The translations under genes were made by a program, and so were the position numbers. A stretch of DNA of 64,000 bases. It comes from Mobula hypostoma. Lineage: Eukaryota. The DNA is taken from the NCBI RefSeq assembly GCF_963921235.1, contig NC_086097.1:109432001-109496000 (forward strand). Direction: 5' to 3'. Positions 2,620-57,486 of the stretch are shown one piece after another. Under the pieces are notes generated by a model, which was not told the DNA's origin, did no database searches, and saw only the letters and a list, made by a program, of their open reading frames with translations. Numbering within the stretch: the first letter of the stretch is position 1; the number at the start of each line of letters is the position of its first letter.

Positions 2620-2674
2620 GCCTCTCAAGTCCAACCCTATGCCCCCGTCGTGAGAGGTGGAAATGGGTAAGGAC
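2620..2674 (+). ncRNA. HDV-like self-cleaving ribozyme fold (probably inactivated copy)
   Basis: P1 GCCTCTC(2620-2626)/GAGAGGT(2652-2658) with G1·U wobble. P3 ATG/CGT closes 7-nt L3 CCCCCGT, and GG(2659-2660) can form P1.1. P2 CCCT/AGGA is imperfect. The expected catalytic C position (2667) is G. Confidence 0.6.
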
Positions 2675-2845
2675 GGCCAGCAGGGCTCTGGTGAAGCTGT
2701 ATAGGCCAATCCCCCATACAGTGGATACATTGGATTACAGAAACGTTGACGAACCCCAACCATATCATTGACTTCAGAGGACGATGGAGATGGGAAATTA
2801 TCGATGGCCTATGCTCCCCTGGGAGTTAAGGGCCCATGTGAGTAA
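2620..2845 (+). mobile_element. Short non-autonomous RTE-tailed retroelement with ribozyme head
   Basis: The 3' end TGGCCTATGCTCCCCTGGGAGTTAAGGGCCCATGTGAGTAA resembles RTE-clade tails. The 5' end folds as an HDV-like double pseudoknot. Confidence 0.6.
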
Positions 2846-16170: not shown

Positions 16171-19100
16171 AGGAACATAGAACATAGAGAATCTACAGCA
16201 CATTACAGGTCCTTTGGCCCACAATTTTGTGCGACCATGTAACCTACTTTAAAAGCTGCCTAGAATTTCCCTACCACATAGCCCTCAATTTTTCTAAGCT
16301 CCATGCTCCTATCTAAGAGTCTCTTAAAAGACCCCGTTGCATCTGCCTCCACCACCTTCACTGGCAGTGCATTCCACACACCCACCACTCTCTGTGTGAA
16401 AAACTTACCTCTGACATCCCCCTTGTACCTACTTCCGAGCACCTTAAAACAAACCCCCCTCGAATTAGCTATTTCAGCCCTGGAGAAAAGTCTCTGACTA
16501 TCCACATGATCGATGCCTCTCATCATCTTATACACCTCTATCAGGTCACCTCTCATCCTCCGTCGCTCCAAGGAGAAAAGGCCAAGTTCACTCAAACTAT
16601 TCTCATAAGGCATGCTCTCTAATCTAGGCAACATCTTTGTAAATATCCTCAGCACCCACCCTATAGAATCCACATCCTTCCTATAATGAGGTGACCAGAA
16701 CTGGGCACAGTACTCCAAGTGGGGTCTGACCAAGGTCTTATATAGCTGTAACATTACATCATGGCTCTTAAACTCAATCCCACGGTTGATGAAGGCCAAC
16801 ACACCATATGCCTTCTTAACAACACTGTCAACCTGCGCAGCAGCTTTGAGTATCCTATGGACACGGACCCCAAGATCTCTCAGATCCTCCACTCTGCTAA
16901 GAGTCTTACCATTTATATTATATCTGTCTTCAAATTTAACCTACCGAAATGAACCACCTCACACTTATCTTGGTTGAACTCCATCTGCCAATTCTCAGCC
17001 CAGTTCTGCATCCTATCGATGTCCTGCTGTAGCCTTTGACAACCCCGCAGACTATCCACAACACCATCAACTTATGTATCATCAGCCAACTTACTCACCC
17101 ACCCTTCTACTTTCTCAACCAGGTCATTTACAAAAATCACAAAGAGGAGGGGTCCCAGAGCAGATTCCTGTGGAACACCACTGGTCACCGACCTCCATAA
17201 TACAAACGATCCACAACCACCTTCTGTGGTCAAGCCAATTCTGGTTCCACAAAGTAAGTTCTCATTGGATCCCACGCCTCATTACTTTCTGAATGAGCCT
17301 CGCATAGGGAACCTTATCAAATGCCTTACTGAAATTCATATATATTACATCCGCTGCTGTACCTTTATCAATGTGTTTTGTTACATCCTCAAAGAATTCA
17401 GTCAGGTTTATAAACCATGACCTGCCCTTGACAAAGCCATGCTGACTCTCCTTAATCAGATTATGTCTCTCCAAATGCTCATAAATCCTGCCTCTCCTGA
17501 CCTTCTCCAACAACTTGCCCACCACTCACTGGTCTATAATTTCCTAGGTTATCTCTATTCCCTTTCTTGAACAAGGGAACAACATTTTCAAACTTCCAAC
17601 CCTCTGGTACTTCTCCCGTCCCTATTGATGATGCAAATATCATTGCCAGAGGCTCAACAATCTCCTCCCTTGCTTCTTACAGTAGCCTGGGGTATAACTC
17701 ATCCAGTCCTGGCAACTTATTGAACTTAATACCTTTCAAAAGCTGTCACACATTCCTTTTCTTAATGCCTATACACTCAAGTATTTCAGTCCACTGTAAG
17801 TCATCCTTACAATTGCCAAGGTCCTTTTCTGTGATGAATACTGAAGCAAAGTATTCATTGATTACCTCTGCTACCTCCTCCAGCTCCATGCACATGTTTC
17901 CACTATCACAGCTGATTGGTCCTATACTCACACAGCTCATCCTCTTGCTCTTCACATACATGTAGAATGACTTGGGGTTTTCCTTAATCCAGCTCGCCAA
18001 AGCCTTCTTATGGCCCCTTTGAGCTCTTCCAATTTCATTCTTGAGCTTCTTCCTGGCACCCTTGTAATTTTCTAGAGCTCTAACAGTACCTAGTTTCTTG
18101 CACCTTTTGTAAGCTTTTCTTTTCTTCTTAACTATATTTTCTACATCCTTTGTACACCATGGTTCTTTTACCCTGCTATCCATTCCCTGTCTCAATGGAA
18201 CATACCTGTGCAGAATGCCATACAAATGTTCCCTGAACATTTGTCACATTTCTGCCATGCATTTCCCTAAGAACATCTGCTCCTAATTTATGTTCCCGTC
18301 CTGCCTAATAGCATCATATTTAACCCCACCCCAATTAAATGTTTTCCCAAATTTTCTGCTCCTATCCCTCTGCAGCGCTACAGTAAAGGAGATAAAGTTG
18401 TGATCACTACCTCCAAAATGCTCTCCCACTGAGAGATCTGACACCTGACCAGGTTCATTTCCCAATACCAGATCAAGTACAGCCTCTCCTCTAGTTGGCT
18501 TATCTACATATTGCATCAGGAAACCTTCCTGAACACACCTAACGAACACCATCCCATCTAAACCCCTTGCTCTAAGGAGATAGAAACATAGAAACATAGA
18601 AAATAGGTGCAGGAGTAGGCCATTCAGCCCTTCGAGCCTGCACCACCATTTATTATGATCATGGCTGATCATCCAACTCAGAACCCCGCCACAGCCTTCC
18701 CTCCATACCCCCTGATCCCCGTAGCCACAAGGGCCATATCTAACTCCCTCTTAAATATAGCCAATGAACTGGCCTCAACTGTTTCCTGTGGCAGAGAATT
18801 CCACAGATTCACCACTCTCTGTGTGAAGAAGTTTCTCCTAATCTCGGTCCTAAAAGGCTTCCCCTTTATCCTCAAACTGTGACCCCTTGTTCTGGAGTTC
18901 CCCAACATCGGGAACAATCTTCCTGCATCTAGCCTGTCCAATCCCTTTAGGAGTTTATACGTTTCAATCAGATCCCCCCTCAATCTTCTAAATTCCAACG
19001 AGTACAAGCCCAGTTCATCCAGTCTTTCTTCATATGAAAGTCCTGCCATCCCAGGAATCAATCTGGTGAACCTTCTTTGTACTCCCTCTATGGCAAGGAT

Positions 19101-21575
19101 GTCTTTCCTCAGATTAGGGGACCAAAACTTCACACAATACTCCAGGTGTGGTCTCACCAAGGCCTTGTACAACTGCAGTAGTACCTCCCTGCTCCTGTAC
19201 TCGAATCCTCTCGCTATAAATGCCAGCATACCATTCGCCTTTTTCACCGCCTGCTGTACCTGCATGCCCACTTTCAATGACTGGTGTATAATGACACCCA
19301 GGTCTCGTTGCACCTCCCCTTTTCCTAATCGGCCACCATTCAGATAATAATCTGTTTTCCTATTTTTGCCACCAAAGTGGATAACTTCACATTTATCCAC
19401 ATTAAATTGCATCTGCCATGAATTTGCCCACTCACCCAACCTATCCAAGTCACCCTGCATCCTCTTAGCATCCTCCTCACAGCTAACACTGCCACCCAGC
19501 TTCGTGTCATCCGCAAACTTGGAGATGCTGCATTTAATTCCCTCATCCAAGTCATTAATATATATTGTAAACAACTGGGGTCCCAGCACTGAGCCTTGCG
19601 GTGCCCCACTAGTCACTGCCTGCCATTCTGAAAAGGTCCCGTTTATTCCCACTCTTTGCTTCCTGTCTGCTAACCAATTCTCCATCCACATCAATACCTT
19701 ACCCCCAATACCGTGTGCTTTAAGTTTGCACACTAATCTCCTGTGTGGGACCTTGTCAAAAGCCTTTTGAAAATCCAAATATACCACATCCACTGGTTCT
19801 CCCCTATCCACTCTACTAGTTACATCCTCAAAAAATTCTATGAGATTCGTCAGACATGATTTTCCTTTCACAAATCCATGCTGACTTTGTCCGATGATTT
19901 CACCGCTTTCCAAATGTGCTGTTATCACATCTTTGATAACTGACTCCAGCAGTTTCCCCACCACCGACGTTAGGCTAACCAGTCTATAATTCCCCGGTTT
20001 CTCTCTCCCTCCTTTTTTAAAAAGTGGGGTTACATTAGCCACCCTCCAATCCTCAGGAACTAGTCCAGAATCTAACGAGTTTTGAAAAATTATCACTAAT
20101 GCATCCACTATTTCTTGGGCTACTTCCTTAAGCACTCTAGGATGCAGACCATCTGGCCCTGGGGATTTATCTGCCTTCAATCCTTTCAATTTACCTAACA
20201 TCACTTCCCTACTAACATGTATTTCGCTCAGTTCCTCCATCTCACTGGACCCTCTGTCCCCTACTATTTCTGGAAGATTATTTATGTCCTCCTTAGTGAA
20301 GACAGAACCAAAGTAATTATTCAATTGGTCTGCCATGTCCTTGCTCCCCATAATCAATTCACCTGTTTCTGTCTGTTGGAGACCTACATTTGTCTTTACC
20401 AGTCTTTTCCTTTTTAAATATCTATAAAAGCTTTTACAGTCAGTTTTTATGTTCCCTGCCAGTTTTCTCTCATAATCTTTTTTCCCCTTCCTAATTAAGC
20501 CCTTTGTCCTCCTCTGCTGAACTCCGAATTTCTCCCAGTCCTCAGGTGAACCACTTTCTCTGGCTAATTTGTATGCTTCTTCTTTGGAATTGATACTATC
20601 CCTAATTTCTCTTGTCAGCCACGGGTGCACTACCTTCCTTGATTTATTCTTTTGCCAAACTGGGATGAACAATTGTTGTAGTTCATCCATGCAACCTTTA
20701 AATACTTGCCATTGCATATCCACCGTCAATCCTTTAAGTGTCATTTGCCAGTCTATCTTAGCTAATTCACATCTCATACCTTCAAAGTTACCCCTCTTTA
20801 AGTTCAGAACCTTTGTTTCTGAATTAACTATGTCACTCTCCATCTTAATGAAGAATTCCACCATATTATGGTCACTCTTACCCAAGGGGCCTCTCACGAC
20901 AAGATTGCTAATTAACCCTTCCTCATTGCTCAAAACCCAGTCCAGAATAGCCTGCTCTCTAGTTGGTTCCTCGACATGTTGGTTCAAAAAACCATCCCAC
21001 ATACATCCAAGAAATCCTCTTCCTCAGCACCTTTACCAATTTGGTTCACCCAATCTACATGTAGATTGAAGTCACCCATTATAACTGCTGTTCCTTTATT
21101 GCACACATTTCTAATTTCCTGTTTAATACCATCTCCGACCTCACTACTACTGTCAGTCAATATAAGGAAAGTTAATCTCACCCATCACAATTATTGCACC
21201 GCTCCAGAATCTGCCCCTATCTGCTCCTCAATGTCTCTGTTACTATTGGGTGGGGGGAAGAATAGTTCCATAAAGAAACACCCAGTAGATTTATTGCCCC
21301 CTTCCTGTTTCTGACTTCCACTCACACTGACTCAGTGGACAATCCTTCCATGACTTACTCCTCTTCTGCAGCCATGATACCATCCCTCCCCCACCTCTTT
21401 TGCCTCCTTCCTTGTCCTTTTTGAGATATCTAGAGTCTGGCACACTCAGCAGCTATTCCTGCTTCCCAAGTCATCCAAGTCTCTGTAATGGCCACAGCGT
21501 CATAGTTCCACATATTGATCCACACTCTAAGTTCACTTGCCTTGTTTATGATACTCCTTGCATTAAAATAGACAC
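16171..21575 (-). mobile_element. CR1 LINE (ORF2 EN+RT, frameshifted) interrupted by a younger CR1 at 18581-21153
   Basis: EN start CVYFNARSIINKA…AITETW at ~21430-21575, GSDHN at ~18400, RT fragments at 17072-17525 and an ORF at 16260-16892. The host rejoins as ggagat|gtcagtcaat. Confidence 0.9.
18581..21153 (-). mobile_element. Young 5'-truncated CR1 LINE (774-aa ORF2 remnant, RT motifs intact)
   Basis: ORF 18678-21002 has YLDFQKAFD, GSVLGP and FADD, with an (TTCTATGT)n tail. It is near-identical to 31585-34700, with a 1-nt deletion near 21006. Confidence 0.97.
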
Positions 21576-31584: not shown

Positions 31585-34500
31585 AAACATAGAAACATAG
31601 AAACATAGAAAATAGGTGCAGGAGTAGGCCATTCAGCCCTTCGAGCCTGCACCGCCATTTATTATGATCCTGGCTGATCATCCAACTCAGAACCCAACCC
31701 CAGCCTTCCCTCCATACCCCCTGATCCCCATAGCCAGATGGGCCATATCTAACTCCCTCTTAAATATAGCCAATGAACTGGCCTCAACTGTTTCCTGTGG
31801 CAGAGAACTCCACAGATTCACCACTCTCTGTGTGAAGAAGTTTTTCCTAATCTCAGTCCTAAAAGGCTTCCCCTTTATCCTCAAACTGTGACCCCTCGTT
31901 CTGGACTTCCCCAATTTCGGGAACAATCTTCCTGCATCTAGCCTGTCCAATCCCTTTAGGAGTTTATACGTTTCAATCAGATCCCCCCTCAATCTTCTAA
32001 ATTCCAACGAGTACAAGCCCAGTTCATCCAGTCTTTCTTCATATGAAAGTCCTGCCATCCCAGGAATCAATCTGGTGAACCTTTTTTGTACTCCCTCTAT
32101 GGCAAGGATGTCTTTCCTCAGATTAGGGGACCAAAACTGCACACAATATTCCAGGTGTGGTCTCACCAAGGCCTTGTACAACTGCAGTAGTACCTCCCTG
32201 CTCCTGTACTCGAATCCTCTCGCTATAAATGCCAGCATACCATTTGCCTTTTTCACTGCCTGCTGTACCTGCACGCCCACTTTCAATGACTGGTGTATAA
32301 TGACACCCAGGTCTCGTTGCACCTCCCCTTTTCCTAATCGGCCACCATTCAGATAATAATCTGTTTTCCTATTTTTGCCACCAAAGTGGATAACTTCACA
32401 TTTATCCACATTAAATTGCATCTGCCATGAATTTGCCCACTCACCCAACCTATCCAAGTCACCCTGCATCCTCTTAGCATCCTCCTCACAGCTAACACTG
32501 CCGCCCAGCTTCATGTCATCCGCAAACTTGGAGATGCTGCATTTAATTCCCTCATCCAAGTCATTAATATATATTGTAAACAACTGGGGTCCCAGCACTG
32601 AGCCTTGCGGTACCCCACTAGTCACTGCCTGCCATTCTGAAAAGGTCCCGTTTATTCCCACTCTTTGCTTCCTGTCTGCTAACCAATTCTCTATCCACAT
32701 CAATACCTTACCCCCAAAACCGTGTGCTTTAAGTTTGCACACTAATCTCCTGTGTGGGACCTTGTCAAAAGCCTTTTGAAAATCCAAATATACCACATCC
32801 ACTGGTTCTCCCCTATCCACTCTACTAGTTACATCCTCAAAAAATTCTATGAGATTCGTCAGACATGATTTTCCTTTCACAAATCCATGCTGACTTTGTC
32901 CGATCATTTCACTGCTTTCCAAATGTGCTGTTATCACATCTTTGATAACTGACTCCAGCAGTTTCCCCACCACCGACGTTAGGCTAACCGGTCTATAATT
33001 CCCCGGTTTCTCTCTCCCTCCTTTTTTAAAAAGTGGGGTTACATTAGCCACCCTCCAATCCTCAGGAACTAGTCCAGAATCTAACGAGTTTTGAAAAATT
33101 ATCACTAATGCATCCACTATTTCTTGGGCTACTTCCTTAAGCACTCTGGGATGCAGACCATCTGGCCCTGGGGATTTATCTGCCTTTAATCCCTTCAATT
33201 TACCTAACACCACTTCCCTACTAACATGTATTTCACTCAGTTCCTCCATCTCACTGGACCCTCTGTCCCCTACTATTTCTGGAAGATTATTTATGTCCTC
33301 CTTAGTGAAGACAGAACCAAAGTAATTATTCAATTGGTCTGCCATGTCCTTGCTCCCCATAATCAATTCACCTGTTTCTGTCTGTAGGGGACCTACATTT
33401 GTCTTTACCAGTCTTTTCCTTTTTACATATCTATAAAAGCTTTTACAGTCAGTTTTTATGTTCCCTGCCAGTTTTCTCTCATAATCTTTTTTCCCCTTCC
33501 TAATTAAGCCCTTTGTCGTCCTCTGCTGAACTCTGAATTTCTCCCAGTCCTCAGGTGAGCCACTTTTTCTGGCTAATTTGTATGCTTCTTTGGAATTGAT
33601 CGTATCCCTAATTTCTCTTGTCAGCCACGGGTGCACTACCTTCCTTGATTTATTCTTTTGCCAAACTGGGATGAACAATTGTTGTAGTTCATCCATGCAA
33701 TCTTTAAATGCTTGCCATTGCATATCCACCGTCAATCCTTTAAGTGTCATTTGCCAGTCTATCTTGGCTAATTCACGACTCATACCTTCAAAGTTACCCC
33801 TCTTTAAGTTCAGAACCTTTGTTTCTGAATTAACTATGTCACTCTCCATCTTAATGAAGAATTCCACCATATTATGGTCACTCTTACCCAAGGGGCCTCT
33901 CACGACAAGATTGCTAATTAACCCTTCCTCATTGCTCAAAACCCAGTCCAGAATAGCCTGCTCTCTAGTTGGTTCCTCGACATGTTGGTTCAAAAAACCA
34001 TTCCGCATACATTCCAAGAAATCCTCTTCCTCAGCATCTTTACCAATTTGGTTCACCCAATCTACATGTAGATTGAAGTCACCCATTATAACTGCTGTTC
34101 CTTTATTGCACACATTTCTAATTTCCTGTTTAATACCATCTCCGACCTCACTACTACTGTTATGTGGCCTGTACACAACTCCCACCAGCGTTTTCTGCCC
34201 CTTAGTGTTATGCAGCTCTACCCATATCGATTCCACATCTTCCCGGCTTATGTCCTTCCTTTCTATTGCGTTAATCTCATCTTTAACCAGCAACGCCATC
34301 CCACCTCCTTTTCTTTCATGTCTATCCCTCCTGAATATTGAATATCCCTGAACGTTGAGCTCCCATCCTTGGTCACCCTGGAGCCATGTCTCTGTGATCC
34401 CAACTATGTCATAATCATTAATAACAATCTGCACTTTCAATTCATCCACCTTGTTACGAATGCTCCTTGCATTGACACACAAAGCCTTCAGGCGCTCTTT

Positions 34501-34700
34501 TACAACTCTCTTAGCCCTTATACAATTATGTTGAAAAGTGGCCCTTTTTGATGCTTGCCCTGGATTTGTCGGCCTGCCACTTTTACTTTTCTCCATACTA
34601 TTTTTTGCTTCTACCCTCACTTTACACCCCTCTGTCTCTCTGCACTGGTTCCCATCCCCCTGTTGTGAACTAACCTCCTCTCGTCTAGCCTCTTTAATTT
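31585..34700 (-). mobile_element. Young CR1 LINE, 5'-truncated upstream of ORF2
   Basis: (TTCTATGT)n tail at 31585-31610, complete ORF2, and a QGDGNQ ORF1-end-like sequence near 34650. Confidence 0.97.
31687..34700 (-). CDS. CR1 ORF2: APE endonuclease + reverse transcriptase, uninterrupted
   Basis: Open ~1000 codons with EN motifs NARS, ITETW, GDFN, SDHN and RT motifs [23 protein letters not shown]. The first ~17 codons of the track ORF lie in the flanking element, and the true start is uncertain. Confidence 0.93.
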
Positions 34701-35592
34701 GAGGAAACTGGTAGGATGCAGAAGGACTTAGACAGATTAGGAGAATGGACAAGAAAGTGGCAAATGAAGTATAATGTTGGAAAATGCATGGTCATACACT
34801 TTGGTAGTAGAAATAAAAGTGTGCACTATTTTGTAAATGGGGGAAAAATCCAGGAATCAGAGATGCAGAGGGACTTGGGAGATCTTGTGCAGAATACCCA
34901 GAAGATTAACTTGCAGGTTGAGTTGGTGGTGAGGAAGGCAAATGCCATGTTAGCATTCATTTCAATAGGTCTCGAATACAAGAGCAAGGATGTAATGCTG
35001 AGGCTTTATAAGGCACAGGTGAAGACTCACCTTGAGTATTGTGAACAGTTTTGGGCTCCTCATCTTAGAAAAGATGTGCTGACATTGGAGAGGGTCCAGA
35101 GGAGGTTCACAAGGATGATTCCAGGAATGAAAGAGTTTTCATACGAGGAACATTTAACGGCTCTCTGTCTGTACTTGCTGGAAATCAGAAGGATGAGGGG
35201 GGACCTCATTGAAACTTTTCGAATGTTGAAAGGCCTAGACAGAATAGATGTGGAAAGGATGTTTCCCGTGGTGGAAGAGTTTAGGACAAGAGGGCACAGC
35301 CACAGAACAGAGGGGCGCCCTTGCAAAACAGAGATGTAGAGAAATTTCTTTTGCCAAAGGGTGGTGAACTTGTGCAATTTGTTGCCACATGCAGCTGTGG
35401 AGGCCAGGTTTTTGGGTATATTTAAGGCAGAGATTGATAGGTTCTTGACTGGTCATGGCATCAAAGGTTACGGGGAGAAGGCCAGGAACTGGGATTAAGG
35501 AGGAGACAGAAAAAAAGGATCAGCTATGATTGAATAGCAGAACAGACTCAATGGACCCAATGGCCTAACTCTGCTCCTATGTCTTATGGTCT

Positions 35593-54654: not shown

Positions 54655-57486
54655 AGACAATAGACAATAGGTGCAGGAGTAGGCCATTCGGCCCTTCGAG
54701 CCAGCAACGCCATTCACTGTGATCATGGCTGATCATCCACAATCAGTATCCAGTTCCTGCCTTATCCCCATAACTTTTGATTCCACTATCTTTAAGAGCT
54801 CTATCCATCTCTTTCTTGAAAGCATCCAGAGACTTGGCCTCCACAGCCTTCTGGGGCAGAGCATTCCATATATCCACCATTCTCTGGGTGAAAAAGTTTT
54901 TCCTCAACTTCGTTCTAAATGGCCTACCCCTTATTCCTGTTGTTTCCCTTATTCTTAAACTGTGGCCTCTGGTTCTGGACTCACCCATCAGCGGGAGTAT
55001 GCTTCCTGCCTCCAGCGTGTCCAATCCCTTAATAATCTTATATGTTTCAATAAGATCCCCTCTCAGCCTTCTAAATTCCAGAGTATACAAGCCCAGTCGC
55101 TCTAAGCTTTCAACATATGACAGTCCCTCCATCCCAGGAATTAAACTTGTGAACCTAAGCTGCACTCCCTCAATAGCAAGAATGTCCTTCCTCAAATTTG
55201 CAGACCAAAACTGCACACAGTACTCCAGGTGTGGTCTCACCAGGGCCCTGTACAGCTGCAGAAGGACCTCTTTGCTCTTATACTCAATTCCCCTTGTTAT
55301 GAAGGCCAGCATGCCATTAGCTTTCTTCACTGCCTGCTGTACTTGCACGCTTGTTTTCACTGACTGATGTACAAGCACACCAAGATCTTGTTGTGCTTCC
55401 CCTTTTCCTAACTTGACTTCATTTAGATAATAATCTGCCTTCCCGTTCTTACCACCAAAGTGGATAACCTCACATTTATCCACCTTAAACTGCATCTGCC
55501 ATGCATCTGCCCAATCACTCAGCCTGTCCAAGTCACCCTGTATTCTCATAACATCCTCCTCACATTTCACACTGCCACCCAGCTTTGTGTATTTGCTAAT
55601 GTTACTTTTAATTCCCTCATCTAAATCATTAATATATATTGTAAACAGCTGTGGTCCTAGCACTGAACCCTGCGGTACCCCACTGGTCACCGCCTGCAAT
55701 TCCAAAAGGGACCTGTTAGTCGCTACTCTTTGTTTTCTGTCAGCCAGCCAATTTTCAATCCATGTCAGTACTCTGCCCCCAATACCATGTGCCCTAATTT
55801 TGCCCACTAATCTCCTATGTGGGACTTTATCAAAGGCTTTCTGAAAGACCAGGTACACTACATCCACTGGCTCTCCCTTGTCCATTTTCGTAGTTACATC
55901 CTCAAAAAATTCCAGAAGATTAGTCAAGCACGATTTCCCCTTCGTAAATCCATGCTGACTTGGACCAATTATGTTACTGCTATCCAGATGTGTTGTAATT
56001 TCATCTTTTATAATTGACTCCAGCATCTTTCCCACTACCGACGTCAGGCTAACTGGTCTATAATTCCCTGTTTTCTCTCTTCCTCCTTTCTTAAAGAGAG
56101 GGACAACATTAGCCACCCTCCAATCCACAGGAACTGGTCGTGAATCTATAGAACATTGGAAAATGATTACCAATGCGTCCACGATTTCTAAAGCCACCTC
56201 CTTAAGTACCCTGGGATGCAGACCATCAGGTCCCGGGGACTTATCAGCCTTCAGACCCAACAGCCTATCCAACATCATTTCCTGCCCAATATAAATTTCC
56301 TTCAATTCATCCATTACCCTCGGTCCTTTGGCCACTGTTACATCTTGGAGATTGTTTGTGTCTTCCCTAGTGAGGACAGATCCGAAGTACCTGTTCAACT
56401 CATCTGCCATTTCCTTGTCGCCCATAATAAGTTCACCCACTTCTATCTTCAAGGGCCCAGTTTTGGTCTTAACTATTTTTTCCCTCTTCACATACCTAAA
56501 GAAGTTTTTACTATCTTCCTTTATATTCTTGGCTAGTTTACCTTCGTACCTCATTTTTTCTCCGCGTATTGCCCTTTTAGTTACCTTCTGTTGCTCTTTA
56601 AAAGTTTCCCAATCCTCCAGCTTCCCACTCGTCTTTGCTATGTTATACTTCTTCTCTTTTATTTTTATACTGTCCGTTACTTCCCTTGTCAGCCATGGCC
56701 TCCCCTTACCCCCCTTAGGATCTTTCTTCCTCTTTGGAACGAACTGATCCTGCACCTTCCGCATTATTCCCAGAAACACTTGCCATTGCTGTTCCACTGT
56801 CATCCCTGCTAGGGTATTGTTCCATTGAACTTTGGCCAGCTCCTCCCTCATAGCACCATAGTTCCCTTTGTTCAACTGTAATATTGACACTTCCGAGTTT
56901 CCCTTCTCCCTCTCAAATTGTAGAGTAAAACTTATCATATTATGGTCACTACCTCCTAATGGCTCCTTTACCTCAAGGTCCCTGATCAAATCCGATTCAT
57001 TGCACAACACTAAATCTAGAATTGCATTCTCTCTGGTAGGCTCCAGTACAAGCTGTTCTAAGAATCCATCTCGGAGGGACTCCACAAACTCCCTTTCTTG
57101 GGGAAAGGGACCAACCTGATTTCTACAGTCTACCTGCATGTTGAAGTCCCCCATAACAACTGTAGCATTACCCTTGCGACATGCCAATTTTAACTCTTGA
57201 TTCAACTTACACCCTACATCCAGACTACTGTTTGGGGGCCTGTGGATAACTTCCATTGGGGTCTTTCTACCTTTAGAATTTCTCAGTTCTATCCCTACTG
57301 ACTCTACGTCTCCTGATTCTATGTCCCCCCTCGCAAGGGACTGAATGTCATTCCTCACCAACAGAGCCACCCCACCTCCTCTGCCCATCAGTCTGTCCTT
57401 TCGATAGGACATATACCCTTGAATATTCATTTCCCAGGCCCTGTCCACTTGAAGCCATGTCTCTATTATTCCCACAACATCATACT
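54655..57486 (-). mobile_element. CR1 LINE (third subfamily), 910-aa open ORF2 remnant with dead RT
   Basis: (CTATTGT)n tail and TSD CTATCAATA. The ORF 54743-57475 has YLVFQKAFD and ISKYTKLGG (FADD lost). Confidence 0.95.

What the first reader, a model, noticed from the sequence alone, without database searches (positions are those of the whole stretch)
2620..2845. ~225-bp retroelement made of an HDV-like ribozyme head and an RTE tail
Seen: the nested double-pseudoknot order P1-P2-P3-L3-P3'-P1'-GG is present. P1 is a 7-bp helix starting with the hallmark G·U pair, and the 7-nt L3 ends in CGT as in the CPEB3 ribozyme. P4 is almost absent (AAATGG), and J4/2 reads GGTA where GCTA would supply the catalytic C. 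GTCC(2629-2632)/GGAC(2671-2674) offers an alternative P2 pairing. Known: RTE and R2 retrotransposons use 5' HDV-like ribozymes. Inference: a promoterless SINE-sized element that cuts itself out of read-through transcripts, with a minimal P4-less ribozyme. This copy is probably dead.
Basis: partly seen in the sequence, partly recalled or inferred. Interest (0 to 1): 0.7.

Follow-up and report, generated by a model that had tools for sequence, protein, structure and literature searches.

The report
Self-cutting mini-RTE with clasped ends
This is one worn copy of a 220-base jumping element, present about a thousand times or more, made of the two ends of a longer RTE-type retrotransposon; its front is predicted to fold into a self-cutting RNA (a known arrangement, though with a different catalytic base than first proposed), and its two ends likely pair with each other.

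Summary
The element is real. Window 2620-2845 is one of at least 930 (about 1,200-1,400 estimated) copies of a family. Its first 156 and last 64 bases are 97% identical to the two ends of a decayed 3.2-kb RTE LINE in the same genome. Copies start at G2620, and target-site duplications abut it. The HDV-like fold is supported by compensatory changes in related RTE heads from metagenomes. P4 is a 3-bp hairpin (2664-2675) that grows to about 105 nt in relatives. The predicted catalytic C is 2677, intact here. This copy is still likely dead, through changes at 2642, 2673 and 2680. The architecture is known (bipartite RTE elements, R2 SIDEs, NARTc). A 5'-3' helix spanning the deletion point covaries across five RTE families. 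That lead came from earlier scan notes, which report the same architecture and helix on other, longer elements in this genome and in others; I tested it here. Cleavage is not shown.

The parts
2620..2845 (+). Whole element: bipartite non-autonomous RTE, 91% identical to its 220-nt family consensus, plus a worn short tandem tail
2620..2774 (+). 5' part = first 156 nt of the parent RTE (96.8% consensus to consensus)
2775..2838 (+). 3' part = last 64 nt of the parent RTE (96.9%); holds the last 16 codons and stop of the RTE ORF (2779-2829)
2836..2845 (+). Degenerate (TAAG)n / (AAG)n tail; no target-site duplication recognised for this copy
2620..2685 (+). Predicted HDV-like ribozyme: P1 2620-2626/2652-2658, P2 2635-2638/2682-2685, P3 2639-2641/2649-2651, L3 2642-2648, P1.1 2643-2644/2659-2660
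2664..2675 (+). P4: 3-bp stem with 6-nt loop (broken at 2673 in this copy); replaced by a 100-104 nt structured insert in 5 of 10 metagenome relatives
2676..2681 (+). J4/2, 6 nt; predicted catalytic C at 2677 (C in 50 of 53 copies, 11 of 11 family rows); conserved A at 2680 is G in this copy
2696..2722 (+). Predicted 10-bp hairpin with a 7-nt loop, with compensatory changes in relatives; function unknown
2744..2757 (+). 5' arm of the predicted end-to-end helix (follows the RTE-wide TACAGAAA motif)
2793..2806 (+). 3' arm of the predicted end-to-end helix; 13 of 14 pairs in the consensus, 10 of 14 in this copy

Best explanation
The element is an internally deleted RTE retrotransposon (first 156 and last 64 bases of a 3.2-kb parent in the same genome) whose 5' end is predicted to be an HDV-like ribozyme that likely cut the RNA free at G2620, after which the parent's protein likely copied it into new sites. 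Shown: two-part origin, copy number, uniform 5' end, target-site duplications, compensatory changes in P1, P2 and P4. Inferred: transcription by read-through from host promoters; self-cleavage with C2677 as the catalytic base; target-primed reverse transcription in trans; pairing of a 5'-UTR arm with the last coding bases, which would hold both ends together and favour deletions that keep both. The family looks old and extinct, and this copy is likely inactive.
For: Parent: head and tail of the short element flank endonuclease and RT remnants in L047, L127, L128, L134, L142, L269, L272; a 14-copy majority is 3,186 nt and matches an intact 1,018-aa RTE protein over residues 26-410 and 436-1017. 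Copies: 75 exact and 930 near matches of one 25-mer, controls 0. 5' end: 23 of 28; the same edge in 4 of 4 runs laid from four other organisms. TSDs in 16 of 47 against 0.89 in mismatched pairs, 13 of 16 ending at base -1. Ribozyme: P2 pair 4 is U-A in 5 and C-G in 5 of 11 rows, P4 pair 2 G-C in 4 and A-U in 7, P1 pair 6 U-A in 2 and C-G in 9; C2677, both following A's, and the L3 U and G are invariant in 11 of 11, while 2678 varies; long inserts fall only inside P4. An elongated J4/2 was active in a theta ribozyme (PMC10879173, passages).
Against: No cleavage assay. No Rfam hit. P2 is only 4 contiguous pairs, the first P3 pair is U-U in 4 of 11 rows and J4/2 is one base longer than usual. The 11 rows are related, so the compensations may be three or four events, and the 5' strand of P1 was chosen by best pairing, which inflates the shuffle result. 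0 of 53 copies keep every pair and core base; 12 of 53 keep the core under a tolerant rule. No intact parent ORF was seen among the copies fetched. For the end helix, counting G-U lets a cross-family pair tie a cognate one, and the tail was the best site in only 5 of 8 long copies.
Confidence: 0.8

Rival explanations
1. The exact 5' end comes from an internal RNA polymerase II promoter in the RTE 5' UTR, alone or together with the ribozyme, as for Pr77/L1TcRz of L1Tc and NARTc; the element is then not promoterless.
For: Precedent in PMC3383444 (abstract and opening); Kojima 2018 expects Pol II transcription of bipartite LINEs (passage). A CCAAT-like word is kept in the 2696-2722 region in most relatives.
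Against: The CCAAT-like word sits in the loop of a covarying RNA hairpin; the first 66 nt covary as an RNA fold; copies in the RNA-type contigs mostly carry unrelated upstream sequence (the runs are only guessed to be RNA and the copies are decayed).
Confidence: 0.12
2. One reading: a minimal P4-less ribozyme with J4/2 at 2666-2669 and catalytic C at 2667.
For: The spacing fits minimal HDV-like ribozymes, which exist (PMC10879173; PMC3774820).
Against: C at 2667 in 0 of 53 copies and 0 of 11 family rows; its P2 exists in 1 of 53 copies; 100-nt inserts open at this place in relatives.
Confidence: 0.02
3. The head is a conserved pseudoknot bound by the RTE protein that lost or never had cleavage in this lineage.
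For: Short P2, 6-nt J4/2, U-U in P3 in some relatives; an R2 5' pseudoknot also binds protein (PMC6765202, passage).
Against: The invariant bases are the catalytic set (C2677, the A three bases on, L3 U and G), and the element begins exactly at the predicted cut site.
Confidence: 0.06

Closest known systems
Bipartite ORF-less non-autonomous RTE elements (RTE-N2_Lch, RTESINE1/2, WALLSI3, MAR4_MD, Bov-A; Kojima 2018, PMC5786205: part 2 of 5, passages, one supplement search; Kojima 2020, PMC7245038: passages)
   Same: 5' end plus 3' end of an RTE, no Pol III head; RTE-N2_Lch is 214 + 70 bp against 156 + 64 here. Kojima notes that such elements usually keep the LINE's 5' end and links this to predicted 5' ribozymes.
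   Different: Another family; here the ribozyme is parsed and backed by covariation, and an end-to-end helix is proposed where Kojima says such deletions arise 'for unknown reasons'. Repbase and Dfam could not be searched, so the family may already have a name.
R2 SIDEs of Drosophila (Eickbush and Eickbush 2012, PMC3414825: abstract)
   Same: HDV-like ribozyme plus the 3' end of the parent LINE, copied in trans.
   Different: SIDEs are R2-derived, rDNA-specific and rare; this one is RTE-derived, dispersed and in about a thousand or more copies.
NARTc / L1Tc of Trypanosoma cruzi (PMC3383444: abstract and opening)
   Same: Short non-autonomous partner sharing a compact (77-nt) HDV-like ribozyme head, cut at +1.
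   Different: Ingi clade; activity and an internal promoter were shown there, neither here.
HDV-like ribozymes of RTE elements (Ruminski et al. 2011; not held; seen only as cited in PMC6765202 and PMC5786205)
   Same: HDV-like ribozyme at the 5' end of RTE LINEs said to lack their own promoter.
   Different: Whether this head type (3-bp or 105-nt P4, 6-nt J4/2) is among those described could not be checked.
Minimal (P4-less) and theta ribozymes (PMC10879173: passages)
   Same: Compact size; an elongated J4/2 is tolerated.
   Different: This ribozyme has a P4, so it is not a minimal one.

Membership tests
Bipartite non-autonomous RTE | 5' part equals the 5' end of an RTE LINE | tested here: met
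   96.8% over 2-156 to the parent majority
Bipartite non-autonomous RTE | 3' part equals the 3' end of the same LINE, with microsatellite tail | tested here: met
   96.9% over 157-220; (TAAG)n/(AAG)n tails
Bipartite non-autonomous RTE | Many dispersed copies with one junction and target-site duplications | tested here: met
   930 near matches; TSD in 16 of 47 against 0.89
Bipartite non-autonomous RTE | Mobilised in trans by the RTE protein | not testable with these tools
   inferred from shared ends
RTE clade (parent) | Single ORF with AP endonuclease and RT, RTE-type C-terminus | tested here: met
   PF20049 hits; 49-56% identity to an intact single-ORF protein of a sister family. No tree was built; reading PF20049 and the C-terminus as RTE marks is recalled
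Classical SINE (tRNA/5S/7SL head, Pol III) | RNA-derived head with A and B boxes | tested here: not met
   no tRNA in 6 of 6 loci; no A/B box pattern in the consensus; head is RTE 5' UTR
HDV-like ribozyme | Nested double pseudoknot P1, P1.1, P2, P3, P4 | tested here: met
   173 of 187 cells pair; two-sided changes in P1, P2, P4
HDV-like ribozyme | Catalytic C and constrained A in J4/2; U and G of L3 | tested here: met
   11 of 11 family rows; this copy lacks the U (2642) and the A (2680)
HDV-like ribozyme | Cut site at the G that opens P1 marks the 5' end | tested here: met
HDV-like ribozyme | Self-cleavage dependent on the catalytic C | not testable with these tools
   needs an assay
HDV-like ribozyme | Match to an Rfam model | tested here: not met
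   no ribozyme family hit in the window stretch or 7 loci; the models do not score pseudoknots
Minimal P4-less HDV-like ribozyme | No P4; catalytic C shortly after P1.1 | tested here: not met

The most novel reading that the evidence does not exclude
RTE RNAs clasp their ends: a 9-14 bp helix joins the 5' UTR (just after the conserved TACAGAAA motif) to the last codons 3 kb away, the RTE protein recognises this joined structure, and that is why RTEs, unlike most LINE clades, spawn two-ended parasites. This 220-nt element would then be close to the smallest complete RTE template (ribozyme, hairpin, clasp, tail) and a design guide for RTE-based gene-writing templates, which already use both UTRs.
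Probability: 0.45. Interest if true: 0.68.

Novelty: new member of a known kind. Interest (0 to 1): 0.42.

Why it matters
The element itself is an ordinary kind: ribozyme-headed two-ended LINE derivatives are in print for R2 and L1Tc, and two-ended RTE derivatives are common. It adds a 66-nt vertebrate-genome HDV-like ribozyme candidate with covariation support, a P4 that switches between 3 bp and about 105 nt, and a 6-nt J4/2, all easy to assay. The wider point is the end-to-end helix: if real, it answers why RTEs keep both ends, which Kojima 2018 leaves open, and bears on RTE gene-writing templates that carry both UTRs (PMC13708176, passages).

Tried and rejected
Rfam scans: no ribozyme hit. 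No second copy in the window. Viral contigs: 102 pattern matches, no relative. GTDB genomes: 10 exact core matches, none continuing into P1', GG or J4/2, so chance. Sequencing runs: no RNA holder listed for this copy; the runs guessed to be RNA are contigs and cannot show RNA starts. MAFFT misplaced P4' and P1, so helices were parsed by anchors; L169, L186 and L187 were left out there for missing 5' parts. In one search the L225 row was mis-anchored and the L189-type rows are shifted by one base. A two-copy majority was uninformative and replaced. Rejected: P4-less parse, the 2629-2632/2671-2674 pairing, a tRNA or Pol III head, and selection on the catalytic C after insertion (change rate 0.057 against 0.091 at non-CpG sites, 0.17 at the conserved A). 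Seven literature searches listed no paper on this family or on an RTE end-to-end helix; Ruminski 2011, Repbase, Dfam and patents could not be read.

Full report
Observation. A descriptor for them finds only this site in the 64-kb window, against 0.02 hits per shuffle in 100 shuffles. Rfam lists no ribozyme family here or in 7 other loci.

A repeat family. A genome search gave 1,700 candidates, of which 40 were scored; the 39 other copies are 82-85% identical over nearly the whole stretch. One internal 25-mer has 75 exact and 930 near matches (up to 3 mismatches), with 0 for the reversed control. A binomial model without indels gives about 1,200-1,400 copies, long ones included. Thirty copies align from G2620 to a short tandem tail, with unrelated flanks. 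Of 28 further copies picked by the mid-element word, and so not selected for their 5' end, 23 begin at base 1-4 and 5 do not. Target-site duplications were found in 16 of 47 full-length copies (11 of 58 left out as interrupted or of other length), against a mean of 0.89 for mismatched flank pairs; 13 of the 16 end at base -1; this copy has none recognisable. Copies differ from the consensus by 10.6% at non-CpG sites of the head (23 copies), and the closest pair is 88.5% alike, so the family is old. Four runs from four other organisms and studies hold the same element with loose ends piling at its first base; two of them also hold the flanks of one insertion.

The parent. Searching with PF20049 gave 145 matches of 150 scored; of 30 loci, 5 end in the element's tail and one of them also starts with its head. 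Longer fetches showed head and tail around endonuclease and RT remnants. A majority of 14 such copies is 3,186 nt; the short element matches its 5' end (2-156, 96.8%) and 3' end (157-220, 96.9%). All parent copies seen are broken. No tRNA or Pol III box was found. So this is a two-ended deletion derivative, not a classical SINE.

The ribozyme. A scan of metagenome contigs with the endonuclease region gave 187 relatives, of which the best 80 were kept; 13 carry a recognisable part of this head, one 85.9% identical over 156 nt. Ten with complete heads plus the family consensus parse as GG, NAA, a 3-bp P4, a 6-nt J4/2 and a 4-bp P2'. Five have a 6-nt P4 loop and five a 100-104 nt structured insert at that same place. 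Two-sided changes occur in P2 (U-A 5, C-G 5, one mismatch), P4 (G-C 4, A-U 7) and P1 (U-A 2, C-G 9). The C at 2677, the two A's after it and the U and G of L3 are invariant; 2678 varies. 173 of 187 cells pair against 159 in row shuffles (0 of 20,000 reach it; 4 of 20,000 with one row per family), but the rows are related and P1's 5' strand was chosen by best fit, so these are not probabilities. Against the fold: the first P3 pair is U-U in 4 of 11 rows, P2 is short and J4/2 is one base long. A theta ribozyme with an elongated J4/2 was active (PMC10879173, passages), and R2 ribozymes vary widely in P4 (PMC3774820, passages).

This copy. C2677 is intact, but the L3 U is C (2642), the conserved A is G (2680) and P4 is broken (2673). 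In the antigenomic HDV ribozyme only four changes of that U-G pair kept activity, and C-G is not among them (PMC3386971, passages). It is likely dead. Twelve of 53 copies keep the core under a tolerant rule, none keeps everything.

Further structure. A 10-bp hairpin at 2696-2722 has compensatory changes in relatives. Earlier scan notes on other elements proposed a helix between the two ends. I tested it here. In this family the 14 nt after the TACAGAAA motif pair with the last codons in 13 of 14 places, with pair probabilities of 0.71-1.0 at 11 of them, and the deletion point lies between the arms. The same positions pair in a second own-genome family (12 of 14), two metagenome elements (12 and 11 of 14) and a third own-genome family (8 of 11). 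Over 11 positions Watson-Crick pairs are 8-9 for cognate and 3-7 for the 12 cross-family combinations; with G-U counted one cross pair ties. The tail was the best site for the 5' arm in 5 of 8 long copies; in two misses the arm is partly deleted. Six other deletion derivatives keep both arms (L075, L078, L088, L160, L225, L239), one with 3 nt between them. Any deletion keeping 140 nt of head and 46 nt of tail would do so too, so this point is weak.

Mechanism. Most likely the element is transcribed by read-through (inferred), cuts itself at G1 (predicted), is bound by the parent protein through the tail and probably the clasp (inferred), and is inserted by target-primed reverse transcription (from TSDs and tail). 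An internal promoter as in L1Tc/NARTc is not excluded (PMC3383444, abstract and opening).

Comparison. Two-ended RTE derivatives are called common, and their 5' ends are linked to predicted ribozymes, in Kojima 2018 (PMC5786205; part 2 of 5, passages, one supplement search) and Kojima 2020 (PMC7245038, passages). R2 SIDEs are the same design (PMC3414825, abstract). A review lists RTE ribozymes (PMC6765202, passages). Seven searches listed nothing on this family or the clasp; Ruminski 2011 and Repbase were out of reach.

Verdict: new member of a known kind, with a corrected ribozyme parse; interest 0.42.

Noticed in passing
L239:596-1160, L225:594-1194, L163, L170: Metagenome contigs of unknown host carry RTEs whose non-coding head is 79-86% identical to this family's; L239 and L225 are themselves two-ended derivatives of about 565-600 bp. 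Suggests horizontal transfer or strong constraint; hosts unknown, no tree built.
   Followed up: partly
L091:2760-5813 (-) and L144-L161: A second RTE family with one 1,018-aa open frame; its head is not HDV-like by my descriptor reading but shows a possible H-type pseudoknot; no Rfam hit in 3 loci.
   Followed up: partly
L160:1500-1700 (-): Two-ended derivative of that second family, with only 3 nt between the two helix arms.
   Followed up: partly
L254, L264: A third RTE family (copies 91-93% alike) with yet another 5' head; a fourth family is seen from 3' ends only (L255-L261).
   Followed up: partly
L075, L078, L088: Other deletion lengths of the same parent (about 340, 400 and 175 bp), each seen once.
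   Followed up: partly
L134:1966-2043: An inverted copy of the element's first 80 nt inside a long parent copy.
   Followed up: no
L047:760-1328: A repeated insertion of about 570 bp with many genomic copies; possibly a solo LTR, not classified.
   Followed up: no
window 18580-21153 and 31589-34791: Two young LINE copies, 97.9% alike over 2.6 kb, with open frames of 781 and 1,034 aa; another of 913 aa at 54743-57484.
   Followed up: no
window 2783-2836: In run X23 (guessed RNA) the tail region reaches a depth of about 4,500 against a few hundred elsewhere, from a contig of another copy; perhaps a copy inside an abundant transcript.
   Followed up: no
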